A stretch of 39,185 nt of DNA from the IMG/VR virus record IMGVR_UViG_3300049139_000186, positions 1 to 39,185 of that record. One strand, written 5' to 3'. Source of the DNA: a virus (Duplodnaviria; Caudoviricetes). Below the pieces are notes generated by a model, which saw only the letters and a list, made by a program, of their open reading frames with translations, ran no database searches and was not told the DNA's origin. Below are positions 289 through 5,900 of the stretch, in pieces. Numbering within the stretch: position 1 is the first letter of the stretch; each line of letters begins with the position of its first letter. A program made the position numbers and the translations under genes.

Positions 289-488
289 CGTCGTGGGCTG
301 AGGATCGGGAGTACGCCGCCCTGGAGAAGGACGACGAGCGGCAGCGAGCCGAGCAAGTGCCGTGCCCAGAGCCGGCGTGCGCCGCGGGGGTTGGGGAGAC
401 CTGCCGGGACCTCCATAGCGGGCAGCCGTTGGGGAAGCTGCCAGCGCACTGGCGGCGGATCAGAGCCGCGAACGAGTCCGCGTCGTGA
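285..488 (+). CDS. Small phage zinc-finger protein
   Basis: CPEPAC-x7-C...H-x2-R motif; coupled at both ends. Confidence 0.7.
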   Translation: MTSWAEDREYAALEKDDERQRAEQVPCPEPACAAGVGETCRDLHSGQPLGKLPAHWRRIRAANESAS

Positions 489-646
489 CTCCGCTTGAGC
501 GGTGGGATCACCACTGGCGCCGCTGGTACCTGCTGGCGGTACGGCAGGGACGGACCCCGAACGAGGCGATTCCGATCGCGTGGCGGCGCACTGAGGACCA
601 GTACGGACAACGACCAGAGATCAACACCACAGCAGGGAGCACACAC

Positions 647-1321
647 ATGAGTGCGAAATCCGAGTACCACAAGATCGATTCGATCTTCGCCCGTGACCGT
701 GCTGGCCGGATCATCGAGGGCACCTACGCGCGCCCCGAGTTCGAGTACCTCGCCGACCGCGAGTGGGTGTTCACCGAGAAGGTCGACGGCACCAACATTC
801 GACTCTCCTTCGACGGCAGCCCCGAGTTCCGGGGCAACGAGCACGCCTACATCGCTGGCCGCACCGACAACGCCCAGATGCCCCCGTTCCTTCTCCAGCG
901 GCTCGTCGAGATCATGCGTGCCGCGCCGTTCGAGGATGTGTTCAAGCCGGACGATGAGGTCGTGCTGTACGGCGAGGGCTACGGCGCGGGGATCCAGAAG
1001 GGCGGCGGCAACTACCTAGCCGACAGTTGCGACTTCGTGCTGTTCGACGTCCGGGTCGGCACCTGGTGGCTACGCCGGGACGCGGTCGAGGATGTCGCCG
1101 CGAACCTCGGCCTCGCCGTCGTCCCGATCCTAGGGAAGGGCACGCTCGCCGACGCGGTCGAACTGACCCGCGAGGGGTTCGCGTCTGACCGGTGGCCAGG
1201 AGTCGCGGTCGCGGAGGGTCTCGTGCTGCGGCCCGCCGTAGAGCTGTTCGACCGTCGCGGCGAGCGGGTCATCACGAAGATCAAGCACAAGGACTTCGTT
1301 CGCTCTGGTCGGGCGTCGTGA
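647..1321 (+). CDS. ATP-dependent RNA ligase (Rnl2-like nucleotidyltransferase domain); ORF is open upstream to 485
   Basis: Motif I TEKVDGTN, III YGEGYG, IIIa FVLFDV, IV EGLVLRP, V KIK; RBS AGGGAG before ATG 647. Confidence 0.9.
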   Translation: MSAKSEYHKIDSIFARDRAGRIIEGTYARPEFEYLADREWVFTEKVDGTNIRLSFDGSPEFRGNEHAYIAGRTDNAQMPPFLLQRLVEIMRAAPFEDVFKPDDEVVLYGEGYGAGIQKGGGNYLADSCDFVLFDVRVGTWWLRRDAVEDVAANLGLAVVPILGKGTLADAVELTREGFASDRWPGVAVAEGLVLRPAVELFDRRGERVITKIKHKDFVRSGRAS

Positions 1322-2830: not shown

Positions 2831-3004
2831 TCACCCACCAGACGAGCGGCGCTGTTCCTCGGTCTCGGCGACAGGGACGGGCACAACGGCGGCGATGCGT
2901 CGGCCGCGCGAGGTGACGTAGGTGATCTGGCCTCGGACGGCGGCGTCGTTGAGCACGTCGGCGAGGGTGGCTCGCAGCTCTCGGACGCTCTTCTCGTCGG
3001 GCAT
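2831..3004 (-). CDS. Phd/YefM-family antitoxin-like protein (57 aa, not in ORF track)
   Basis: MPDEKSVRELRATLADVLNDAAVRGQITYVTSRGRRIAAVVPV, the Phd/YefM N-terminal DNA-binding signature. Confidence 0.85.
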   Translation of the reverse strand: MPDEKSVRELRATLADVLNDAAVRGQITYVTSRGRRIAAVVPVPVAETEEQRRSSGG

Positions 3005-3011
3005 GGCCACG

Positions 3012-3050
3012 ATGGTACCTCAGCTACCACTCGTGTACACTGGTGAACAC
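3012..3050 (-). promoter_or_regulatory. Probable leaderless promoter of the phd-like gene with two Phd-type operator boxes
   Basis: -10-like TACCAT (minus strand, 3012-3017) 7 nt before ATG; palindrome GTGTACAC 3033-3040 and near-palindrome GTGAACAC 3043-3050. Confidence 0.65.
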
Positions 3051-3074
3051 GGCTAGCCGGAAAGAGGCAAGGGC

Positions 3075-4025
3075 ATGGGACGCGAAGTGAAGCGGGTGCC
3101 GGTCGACTTCGACTGGCTGCTCAACGAGGTATGGCAGGGCTATCTCATGCCCGATCGGCTGCACGAAGACAAGTGCCCGGACTGCAAGAGCGGCTACTCG
3201 CCGCAGGCAGAGCACCTGTTCGACCTCTGGTACGGGTACGCGCCGTTCGATCCCGCCTCAAACGGCTCAACGCCGCTCACGGCGGACACGCCAGCAGTGC
3301 GCGCGTTCGCGGAGCGGAACGTCACCAACTCGCCCGCCTTCTACGGCAGCGGCGTGTTCGCGATCAGCCGCGAGGCTCAGCGGCTCGCCGACCTGTGGAA
3401 CGGGCAGTGGAGCCACCACCTCGCCGAGGACGACGTTGCGGCCCTACTCGAAGCCGATCGGCTGTGGGACCTGACCCGCCAGATCGGCCCGAACGGCTGG
3501 GAGGACATCGACCCCAAGCCCGTCCCAACCCCGCAGCAGGTCAACGAGTGGTCCATCCTGGGGTTCGGCCATGACTCGATCAACGCCAGCGTTGTGGTCC
3601 GGGCCCGCTGTGTCCGAGAGGGGCAGCCGGAGGTGTGCTCCACTTGCCAGGGTCACGGCAGCGCGGAGGTGTACGAAGGCCAGCGCGCCGAGGCTGAGGC
3701 GTGGGAGCCGACCGAGCCACCGACCGGCGAGGGCTGGCAACTGTGGGAGACCGTGTCGGAGGGTTCGCCGATCTCACCCGTGTTCCCGGACGCCGAGGGC
3801 TTGGCGCAGTGGCTGACCACTAAGGACGCCTGCTGGGGCGCGATGAAGGAGCCAATGACGGTCAGCGCGGCGCGTGCGTTCGTCGGTGAGGGATGGGCAC
3901 CCACGTTGATCGGGAACGCTGGTGGCATCCACGAGGGCGCGGACTATGTCGGCACGGAGAAGGTGCTCAAGGACATCGAGAACGGCGGCTCTGGGTCTGG
4001 TTCTGGGGTGGTGACCGAACGGTGA
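3075..4025 (+). CDS. Conserved hypothetical phage protein with Cys pairs
   Basis: MGREVKRVP...CPDC...CSTC...EPPTGEGWQLWETVSEGSPISPVF; RBS AAGAGG. Confidence 0.8.
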   Translation: MGREVKRVPVDFDWLLNEVWQGYLMPDRLHEDKCPDCKSGYSPQAEHLFDLWYGYAPFDPASNGSTPLTADTPAVRAFAERNVTNSPAFYGSGVFAISREAQRLADLWNGQWSHHLAEDDVAALLEADRLWDLTRQIGPNGWEDIDPKPVPTPQQVNEWSILGFGHDSINASVVVRARCVREGQPEVCSTCQGHGSAEVYEGQRAEAEAWEPTEPPTGEGWQLWETVSEGSPISPVFPDAEGLAQWLTTKDACWGAMKEPMTVSAARAFVGEGWAPTLIGNAGGIHEGADYVGTEKVLKDIENGGSGSGSGVVTER

Positions 4026-5374
4026 TCCGCGCGTACCAGTTCGCTCTTGACCCGACCGTCCGCCAGATCGAGGCGATGCGGAGTCACTGTGGGGCGACCC
4101 GCATGGCCTTCAACTGGTGCCTGGCCAAGGTCAAGGCCAACTGGGCGCAGCGAGCGGCGGAGCAGAGCTACGGCCTGAGCGGCGAGCAGCTCACTCCCTG
4201 GATCGACACGTCTGCATACGCCCTGCGTCGGGCATGGAACGCCGCCAAGGGCGACGTCGCGCCGTGGTGGAAGGAGAACAGCAAGGAGGCATACGCCTCC
4301 GGATGCGCGAACCTCTCCGCTGCTCTGCGCAACCTCAGCGCCGGCCGGACTCGCATGCCGCGCTACAAGACCAAGCATCGATCGCGAATGTCGTGCCGAT
4401 TCACTACCGGGATCTTCGGGCTGACCCGCGACCGGCGGCACGTGCGTCTCCCAGTCATCGGCGTGATCAGGACCCATGAATCGACGCGCAAACTCGCTCG
4501 CCGCGTCGAGTCCGGTGTTGCTCAGATCAAGTCGGCGACGCTCAGCTTCCGGCGGGGGCGCTGGCAGGTTGCGTTCGCCGTCGAACTGGGCGAACCCGCT
4601 ACGCAGCGACAGGGCGACACGGGCGTTGTTGGGGTCGACCTGGGAATCAAGGAGTTGGCCACGCTGTCAACTGGCGAGCGTGTTCCTAACCCCAGGCGTC
4701 TCGATGCCGCGCTTCGTCGGCTGCGTCGCGCTCAACGGGTGTGCTCTCGGCGGCGCGGGCCGCTGCACAAGGTCGGCCTGGAGTCGTCGAGCCGGTGGCG
4801 TAGGGCGCGAGCGCGGGTTGACCGCATCCACGCCCGAGTTGTCAATCTTCGACGTAACGACACCCACCAGTTCACCACCCGCCTTGTCCGGGACTTCGAC
4901 ACGATCGTGATCGAGGATCTACATGTGGCCGGGATGCTGCGAAACCGCAGACTGTCCCGTCGAATCGCCGATGCGAACTGGGCGGAGATCCGCCGCCAGG
5001 TGACCTACAAGGCGGACGCCGCGGGTGTCCGGTTGATCGTCGCGGACCGTTGGTTCGCGTCCAGCAAGACGTGCTCGGGATGCGGGACAGCGAAAGCCAA
5101 GCTGCCACTCTCGGTGCGGACCTACGCATGCATGGCGTGCGGCCTCGTCCTTGATCGGGACGAGAACGCCGCGCTGAACCTGGCCGCCCTGGCCAGCACC
5201 GGCGAGTTGCGCCGGGAGCAGCCCGACAGAACCGATGTCAGACCGGTGACGCTTGCGTCGTCCGGCAGTCGGACCGCTGCGGGAAGAGCTACGTGCTCAA
5301 CGTCAACGCCGCAAGGGGTTGGCTCGGTAGGCGGGTCAGTGCGACCTGCGGACCGAACGGTGGTGACCCAATGA
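4022..5374 (+). CDS. tnpB: IS607-family RNA-guided endonuclease TnpB (no tnpA)
   Basis: RAYQFALDPT N-terminus, VAPWWKENSKEAY motif, RuvC-I VGVDLG, RuvC-II IVIEDL, Zn ribbon CSGC/CMAC, RuvC-III DRDENAALNL; GTG start overlaps the upstream stop. Confidence 0.95.
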   Translation: MIRAYQFALDPTVRQIEAMRSHCGATRMAFNWCLAKVKANWAQRAAEQSYGLSGEQLTPWIDTSAYALRRAWNAAKGDVAPWWKENSKEAYASGCANLSAALRNLSAGRTRMPRYKTKHRSRMSCRFTTGIFGLTRDRRHVRLPVIGVIRTHESTRKLARRVESGVAQIKSATLSFRRGRWQVAFAVELGEPATQRQGDTGVVGVDLGIKELATLSTGERVPNPRRLDAALRRLRRAQRVCSRRRGPLHKVGLESSSRWRRARARVDRIHARVVNLRRNDTHQFTTRLVRDFDTIVIEDLHVAGMLRNRRLSRRIADANWAEIRRQVTYKADAAGVRLIVADRWFASSKTCSGCGTAKAKLPLSVRTYACMACGLVLDRDENAALNLAALASTGELRREQPDRTDVRPVTLASSGSRTAAGRATCSTSTPQGVGSVGGSVRPADRTVVTQ

Positions 5375-5380
5375 CGATCC
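5190..5380 (+). ncRNA. Predicted TnpB omegaRNA (scaffold to ~5360, guide ~5361-5380)
   Basis: Overlaps the tnpB 3' end; stem-loops at 5199-5215, 5304-5321 (GCAA loop) and 5324-5356, ending in AACGG as IS607-type right ends do; 5' boundary is a guess. Confidence 0.7.
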
Positions 5381-5685
5381 AGGAAGGGGTGGGTGATGTG
5401 TTCCCTATCCCAGAAGAAGCGATCGAAGCAGCCGTGGACGTGTCGTGGGGCGGTCAGCAGTTGCGCCGTGATCACGCGCGATACGTGCTTCAGGCTGCGG
5501 CTCCGCTCATCGTGGCAGCCGAACTCGACCGGCTCGCCGAGTGCCTGCCGATCAGTCTCGGCGTGATGGACGACGACGACCAGGCGGACCCGGAGTCGAT
5601 GCCGACCTACGACGAGGGCGTCGACGACATGCAGCGGTTGCTGAGGGGGCGGGCTTCTGTGTTGCGTGGGGAAGGGGTGACATGA
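5371..5685 (+). CDS. Hypothetical phage protein
   Basis: ATGA-coupled to tnpB; IPEEAIEAA...LQAAAPLIVAAEL motif seen in actinophage early genes. Confidence 0.7.
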   Translation: MTIQEGVGDVFPIPEEAIEAAVDVSWGGQQLRRDHARYVLQAAAPLIVAAELDRLAECLPISLGVMDDDDQADPESMPTYDEGVDDMQRLLRGRASVLRGEGVT

Positions 5686-5900
5686 CGGTCCGGCGATTTT
5701 CGACGCTGTTCTGCGACGCAGACGATGGCGGCTGCGGCGAGTGGGCCGACGTCGACGATGGCGTGGGCACGCACGACGACGCTCGCAGCCTGCGGAGGGC
5801 CGCGAAGCGACGCGGATGGACGAGAGCCAAGGTCGGCGACCGGTGGCAGGACTTCTGCCCGGCGCACCGGTTGCGTGGGGAAGGGCTAACCAATGGCTGA
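5682..5900 (+). CDS. Small Cys/His zinc-binding phage protein
   Basis: CDADDGGC...GW...DFCPAH; coupled start. Confidence 0.7.
   Translation: MTVRRFSTLFCDADDGGCGEWADVDDGVGTHDDARSLRRAAKRRGWTRAKVGDRWQDFCPAHRLRGEGLTNG

What the first reader, a model, noticed from the sequence alone, without database searches (positions are those of the whole stretch)
4004..4028. Predicted TnpB guide matches tnpB's own RBS/start region at 16/20: possible RNA-guided autorepression
Seen: guide 5361-5380 TGGTGACCCAATGACGATCC versus 4009-4028 TGGTGACCGAACGGTGATCC, with the first 8 nt perfect and mismatches only at positions 9, 12, 14 and 15. The site is preceded by TGGGG and covers the GTG start at 4022. A second 12-bp repeat, GACCGAACGGTG, sits at 4013-4024 and 5351-5362, so a copy of the right-end terminus lies at the tnpB start. 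Known: seed-only pairing lets Cas12/TnpB-type proteins bind without cutting, and nuclease-dead TldR proteins repress transcription. Inference: the filled allele escapes cleavage but may be bound, damping tnpB and downstream early genes. It could also be just a relic of the insertion duplication.
Basis: partly seen in the sequence, partly recalled or inferred. Interest (0 to 1): 0.7.

Follow-up and report, generated by a model that had tools for sequence, protein, structure and literature searches.

The report
Phage TnpB half-targets its own start
A soil phage carries a transposase-less RNA-guided nuclease gene (tnpB) whose predicted guide matches the gene's own start at 16 of 20 bases; the match is likely a scar left when the gene was copied into this spot, predicted to let the enzyme bind but not cut its own DNA, and none of 98 related elements shows the same match.

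Summary
The match is real: 5361-5380 versus 4009-4028, 16/20, 8-nt seed, after TGGGG. The guide boundary (..AACGG at 5360) and a GGG-type adjacent motif are supported by homologues. The gene is an intact IS607-type tnpB with no tnpA or left end in an actinophage record. The site is a mosaic: 8 nt of guide, 6 nt copied from the omegaRNA's own 3' end (causing three of four mismatches), and the family-typical start TGATCC. Ordinary IS607 transposition makes no duplication, so an aberrant, repair-type insertion is the likeliest origin (0.55). Both sequences also resemble ribosome-binding sites, which raises the background. Conservation fails: 0 of 98 other loci, including a syntenic related phage, has a motif-adjacent seed of 6 nt or more at the tnpB start. 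No empty allele was found. By analogy with other TnpBs, cutting is likely blocked and binding plausible, in the orientation that blocks elongation, so by-product autorepression stays open and is easy to test; selected autoregulation is unsupported (0.12). The guide cannot occlude the RBS on mRNA, being the same sense.

The parts
3075..4025 (+). Upstream phage gene U (316 aa, no Pfam hit); its TGA overlaps the tnpB GTG
   Evidence: closest relatives end a few residues earlier
4004..4008 (+). TGGGG, fits the family's (R)GGG insertion motif; predicted TAM
   Evidence: GGG at -3..-1 in 35 of 41 left ends; TAM not assayed
4007..4016 (+). Left copy of a 10-bp direct repeat (other copy 5359-5368); likely the tnpB ribosome-binding site
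4009..4028 (+). Partial self-target: 8 nt seed copy + 6 nt right-end copy + tnpB start TGATCC
4013..4024 (+). 12-bp copy of the right-end terminus/guide junction (5351-5362)
4022..5374 (+). IS607-family tnpB, 450 aa, RuvC D206/E298/D380 intact; frame reads through the omegaRNA and its stop overlaps ATG 5371
   Evidence: (NF038280 469.7 bits, cut-off 350)
5197..5360 (+). Predicted omegaRNA scaffold / right end (5' limit approximate); terminal hairpin 5324-5356, ends AACGG
5361..5380 (+). Predicted guide
5371..5685 (+). Downstream phage gene D; relatives align from GTG 5389 or 5398, so 5371 may not be the start

Best explanation
This is an intact IS607-type tnpB with a predicted guide RNA, stripped of its transposase and left end and wedged between two phage genes, and the match at its start is likely a scar of an aberrant repair-type insertion that copied bits of the right junction to the left, predicted to leave a site that TnpB can bind but not cut. 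Shown: the site consists of 8 nt equal to the guide start, 6 nt equal to the right-end terminus and the family-typical start. Inferred: TnpB cut an empty junction (4008 joined to 5361); during repair from a tnpB-bearing genome the broken left end kept 8 target bases, slipped onto the right-end terminus through a 4-nt microhomology, copied a few bases and switched to the tnpB start. The product would be kept because it breaks the cleavable target, gives tnpB an RBS 7 nt before its GTG, keeps gene U whole and ends tnpB on the stop U would have used. The standing function is likely homing or rival-phage cutting at the empty junction. Binding at 4004-4028 is a likely by-product (about 0.6); a twofold or larger drop in transcript is less likely (about 0.25).
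For: Mosaic decomposition. The 6-nt piece belongs to the omegaRNA terminal stem and the conserved AACGG, so it was likely copied right to left, and it causes mismatches 9, 12 and 14. Positions 16-20 come from TGATCC, found at the start of 18 of 20 close homologues. No tnpA or left-end signature in the record. IS607 transposition makes no target duplication (PMC6188088 passages). Joining 4008 to 5361 restores a GGG motif next to the full guide and keeps U in frame to the stop at 5372-5374. Best seeds of 8 nt or more within 600 nt upstream: 0 of 48 tnpA-bearing and 4 of 28 tnpA-less loci, window included. tnpB is under purifying selection against the related phage G002 (dN/dS 0.18). TnpB-driven homing is shown for an IS607 element (PMC10690162 section 7).
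Against: No empty allele found; none of 81 loci with a U relative holds D or tnpB within 2.5 kb, so a U-D junction is unproven. The template-switch path is a reconstruction with no direct test. Positions 9-20 still match at 8 of 12 (p about 0.002 by composition), which the path explains only as coincidence or a helper microhomology. Guide 11-20 plus 3 nt matches the G002 tnpB start at 12 of 13, which favours a rival. Of the other three solo hits, L098 looks like chance, L153 is a tRNA match and L028 is one base out of register, with a second 11-nt match elsewhere in its genome; in the second batch one tnpA-bearing locus had a 9-nt seed for its second candidate end and no solo locus reached 8.
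Confidence: 0.55

Rival explanations
1. Selected RNA-guided autorepression: the seed match is kept so that active TnpB blocks elongation at its own start and damps tnpB and downstream genes.
For: Best motif-adjacent seed among 1,795 GGG sites. Orientation is the one in which TldRs repress within a transcript: bottom strand paired, TAM side facing the polymerase (section 8). Partial-match autorepression is shown for Cas12a with CreR (section 10). Exact repeats persist although dS to G002 is about 1.05.
Against: 0 of 98 other loci show it; the syntenic phage G002 does not. Any insertion duplication falls in this orientation by itself. The site is inside an operon; a consensus scan found no promoter near it (weak in Actinobacteria). 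Known partial-match autorepression uses a dedicated guide aimed at a promoter.
Confidence: 0.12
2. The guide is a copy of tnpB's own former start region, made by tandem duplication or a circle closed at the left GG; the left copy then changed to escape self-cutting.
For: 5371-5383 matches the G002 tnpB start at 12 of 13, the best of 88 starts. D's relatives align only from 5389 or 5398. The 20-nt register has no gap. G002 has a 14-bp tandem duplication at its right end.
Against: The window's own start is the family-typical one (18 of 20), not the G002 type. The same words occur at unrelated gene junctions (3 of 401 genomes at 20/22). The tree does not resolve the window and G002 as sisters.
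Confidence: 0.17
3. Convergence: both stretches are ribosome-binding sites with overlapping stop and start, and the rest is chance.
For: Both pair well with a recalled anti-SD motif (-12.4 and -10.8 kcal/mol). Other gene starts in this phage reach up to 8 of 10 against the repeat (51 other starts). Unrelated junctions match 5359-5380 at 20/22. An unrelated tnpB (L277) has a similar RBS.
Against: Does not explain the 12-bp copy of the right-end terminus: about 1e-4 to 4e-4 expected between two junction windows, and unique among 76 loci.
Confidence: 0.13

Closest known systems
IS607-family TnpB/omegaRNA (CboIStron, PMC10690162; ISFba1, PMC11061315; IS607/IS1535, PMC6188088)
   Same: Protein family (NF038280 over cut-off), intact RuvC triad, scaffold ending in CGG, G-rich adjacent motif, guide equal to the right flank.
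   Different: No tnpA, no left end, short junction duplications that IS607 transposition does not make, and a reading frame that runs through the omegaRNA to overlap the next gene.
TldR RNA-guided repressors (bioRxiv 10.1101/2023.11.30.569447)
   Same: TnpB-derived, prophage-borne in one clade, seed-level binding, repression-competent orientation.
   Different: TldRs are nuclease-dead and target conserved promoters of other genes; their phage copy escapes self-targeting. Here the nuclease looks intact, the target is its own start and is not conserved.
CreR/CreA-guided Cas autorepression (bioRxiv 10.1101/2023.03.10.532045)
   Same: Active effector, partial complementarity, own gene as target.
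   Different: Dedicated degenerate crRNA aimed at a promoter in a dozen V-A loci; here one flank-derived guide, an intra-operon site and a single case.
Arc repression in IS605 elements (bioRxiv 10.64898/2026.09.24.754181, abstract seen)
   Same: Feedback limit on tnpB expression.
   Different: Done by a separate protein at the promoter, not by the guide RNA.

Membership tests
IS607-family TnpB protein | Score over the NF038280 cut-off | tested here: met
   469.7 bits vs 350; IS200-type model 245.7 vs 425
IS607-family TnpB protein | RuvC D-E-D and zinc finger intact | tested here: met
   D206, E298, D380; four cysteines invariant in 40 sequences
IS607-family TnpB protein | Downstream omegaRNA ending at a GG right end | tested here: met
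   no Rfam family reached its threshold
IS607-family TnpB protein | RNA-guided, TAM-dependent cleavage | not testable with these tools
   needs a TAM library and interference assay
IS607 insertion sequence (autonomous or with both ends) | Serine-recombinase tnpA upstream | tested here: not met
   record is about 61% complete
IS607 insertion sequence (autonomous or with both ends) | Left end after GG | tested here: not met
   left-end signature absent from 3001-4100
IS607 insertion sequence (autonomous or with both ends) | No target duplication beyond GG | tested here: not met
   10-bp and 12-bp junction repeats
TldR | Inactivated RuvC | tested here: not met
TldR | Guide conserved against a conserved promoter target | tested here: not met
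CreR-like autorepression | Partial match to own gene next to a PAM/TAM | tested here: met
   TAM predicted
CreR-like autorepression | Target at the promoter | tested here: inconclusive
   site is inside an apparent operon; sigma-70 scan found none nearby; no RNA data
CreR-like autorepression | Measured repression | not testable with these tools
   needs a reporter assay

The most novel reading that the evidence does not exclude
One transposon guide doing two jobs: full pairing makes an active TnpB cut empty rival phage genomes, while seed-only pairing at its own start makes the same enzyme a self-limiting roadblock on its operon, a natural TnpB feedback loop born from an insertion scar and a first step from homing nuclease to RNA-guided repressor.
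Probability: 0.22. Interest if true: 0.72.

Novelty: new variant of a known kind. Interest (0 to 1): 0.42.

Why it matters
If the scar reading holds, it shows how a tnpB that has lost its transposase can still enter a new phage gene junction, keeping translational coupling on both sides and escaping its own nuclease. If binding also damps transcription, it is a ready natural test of guide-based autoregulation by an active TnpB. Seven literature searches (listings only) showed no paper reporting that. As a single, unconserved case its weight is moderate.

Tried and rejected
Empty allele: no match in viral contigs, annotated phages, 401 genomes (3 hits, all unrelated gene junctions) or the one run that holds the stretch (it may be the source sample, contigs drop rare variants, no joint skipping tnpB). 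No RNA holder listed. D relatives in viral contigs: none confirmed. U relatives: 0 of 401 genomes at E 1e-60; 0 of 81 viral loci next to D or tnpB. Rfam: one weak chance-level hit. Whole omegaRNA fold z -1.7, not significant alone. Misplaced guide boundary: rejected. TldR identity: rejected. mRNA-level RBS occlusion: rejected on strand sense. G002 guide target: its right end is ambiguous (three AACGG); one candidate guide has a 16/20 match with an 8-nt seed in a WhiB-like gene (family name recalled) but no adjacent GGG, which shows that 16/20 can arise without function. Tree of 54 rows leaves the window in a polytomy. Earlier-finding look-ups by place and sequence were empty. No structure or complex prediction was run.

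Full report
Observation. Composition predicts 0.026 such matches in the window. Among 1,795 GGG sites, 4009 has the longest seed.

Setting. The window is a whole virus record, about 61% complete, with terminase, portal, capsid and tail genes. Relatives point to an actinobacterial host. ORF 4022-5374 is an IS607-family TnpB with D206, E298 and D380 intact. No resolvase family match, no hit to a relative's TnpA and no left-end signature were found. The stop of upstream gene U overlaps the tnpB GTG, and the tnpB stop overlaps ATG 5371.

Guide and motif. Earlier AI notes on other phages reported misplaced guides, so I tested the boundary. In 16 close elements conservation runs to AACGG, most end in a terminal hairpin just before it, and conservation is lost after +1 (T in 11 of 16). 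The window's end at 5360 fits. In 41 of 50 left ends where the anchor motif was found, GGG stands at -3..-1 in 35 and a purine at -4 in 39. Published IS607 TAMs are TGGG (PMC10690162, section 7) and AGGAG or GAGGG (PMC11061315, passages). TGGGG is therefore a plausible TAM, unassayed.

Anatomy of the site. It splits into three parts: 4009-4016 equals the guide's first 8 nt; 4017-4022 equals the last 6 nt of the right end; 4023-4028 is TGATCC, present at the start of 18 of 20 close homologues. The middle part is native to the omegaRNA stem and causes three of the four mismatches. So the left junction was likely built from right-junction DNA. IS607 transposition leaves no duplication (PMC6188088, passages), so another process made it. 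Joining 4008 to 5361 gives a GGG motif next to the full guide and keeps U in frame to the stop that tnpB now uses; the frame agreement is a one-in-three event, so it is modest support.

Homologues. I kept loci with a tnpB start, at least 100 nt upstream, 30% identity or more, a callable AACGG end and distinct guides: 76 including the window, plus 23 of 27 further genome loci. The scan reports the best seed per candidate end within 600 nt upstream. None of the 98 others has a GGG-adjacent seed of 6 nt or more at the start; the nearest is a 5-nt seed after CAGGG in L257, within chance. Seeds of 8 or more occurred in 0 of 48 tnpA-bearing and 4 of 28 tnpA-less loci in the first set, and 1 of 12 and 0 of 11 in the second. 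The tnpA-less class includes short contigs and probably missed, diverged tnpAs. The longest word shared by both junctions is 12 nt in the window and at most 9 in 75 others. Only three close relatives lie in viral contigs. G005 is a full IS607. G003 has a solo tnpB with an 11-nt guide match at the start of the gene before it, one base out of motif register; the same word matches 11 nt elsewhere in that genome. G002 is a syntenic phage (68-82% DNA identity in its longer shared blocks) with tnpB in front of the same downstream gene and a frame that also reads through the omegaRNA to overlap the next ATG. It has a different upstream gene and no match at its start. dN/dS between the two is 0.18 at dS about 1.05, but the tree does not resolve them as sisters.

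Mechanism. Shown: the anatomy, the missing tnpA and left end, the lack of conservation. Inferred: an active TnpB cuts an empty junction, and repair from a carrier genome installs the cassette, as shown for CboIStron. Here the repair likely slipped twice on microhomologies and left the mosaic. That product would survive because mismatches at 9 and 12 should impair cutting (ISFba1: single mismatches at 1-13) and because it supplies an RBS and keeps both neighbours translatable. Binding is plausible: TldRs need about 6 nt of seed and dead TnpB binds many TAM sites with little seed bias (PMC10055086, passages). The orientation is the one that blocked elongation for TldRs, but any such duplication has it. 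The guide has the mRNA's sense, so it cannot block the RBS on RNA. Whether an active TnpB with a mismatched target stays long enough to stall polymerase is untested.

Against my reading. No empty allele turned up in six attempts, and U was not seen next to D. Guide bases 11-20 plus three more match the G002 tnpB start at 12 of 13, and D's relatives begin at 5389 or 5398, so the guide may itself copy a former tnpB start. Both stretches look like ordinary actinobacterial gene junctions, which inflates similarity beyond the composition estimate; a G002 candidate guide also has a 16/20 match without a motif.

Known systems. The protein is an IS607 TnpB; the element fails three defining features of an IS607 insertion sequence; it is not a TldR. 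It would work like CreR-guided Cas12a autorepression (section 10) only if repression is measured. Other controls on TnpB are known: Arc (abstract) and mRNA-based inhibition (PMC10278001, abstract and section 12). PMC10691335 passages mentioned no self-targeting. Supplements of these papers were not read and could hold related cases. Earlier AI notes describe other phage solo tnpBs with junction repeats; they are unchecked leads.

Verdict. Real feature, new variant of a known kind. Insertion scar 0.55, self-derived guide with escape 0.17, convergence 0.13, selected autorepression 0.12. Measurable feedback by either route about 0.22. Interest 0.42.

Noticed in passing
L144 (G129:C1:1693835), L255 (G673:C7:71930), L153 (G001:C4:342440), L091: Solo IS607-type tnpBs whose predicted guides read like the T-arm and 3' end of a tRNA; L144 and L153 sit just downstream of tRNA genes that match the guide at 15 of 20 (L255: a 16/20 match at the like position). 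The three host genomes searched hold no exact second copy. Possibly aimed at tRNA attachment sites of mobile elements.
   Followed up: partly
window 5220-5374; G002:C1 43300-43451: Both phages carry a one-base shift in the omegaRNA region that lets the tnpB frame read through the whole scaffold and overlap the next start codon; IS-type relatives stop inside the scaffold.
   Followed up: partly
G002:C1 about 43408-43435: 14-bp tandem duplication of the right-end terminus, leaving two candidate guides.
   Followed up: partly
L028 2699-2709 and right end (G003:C1:34804, 33158): An 11-bp direct repeat brackets a cassette of one small gene plus solo tnpB in a 119-kb phage.
   Followed up: partly
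window 5661-5681 and 5870-5890: Two adjacent small genes end in the same 21-nt sequence (90% alike), also seen in G002; a possible recombination boundary motif.
   Followed up: no
window 2831-3010 (-): Small reverse-strand gene with a weak Phd/YefM antitoxin-like hit below cut-off; a similar stretch is in G003.
   Followed up: no
window 485-1321: RNA ligase domain gene among the small genes upstream.
   Followed up: no
window 5361-5397: Guide processing would cut the shared transcript across the 5371 start; a second strong RBS before GTG 5398 could keep gene D translated.
   Followed up: no
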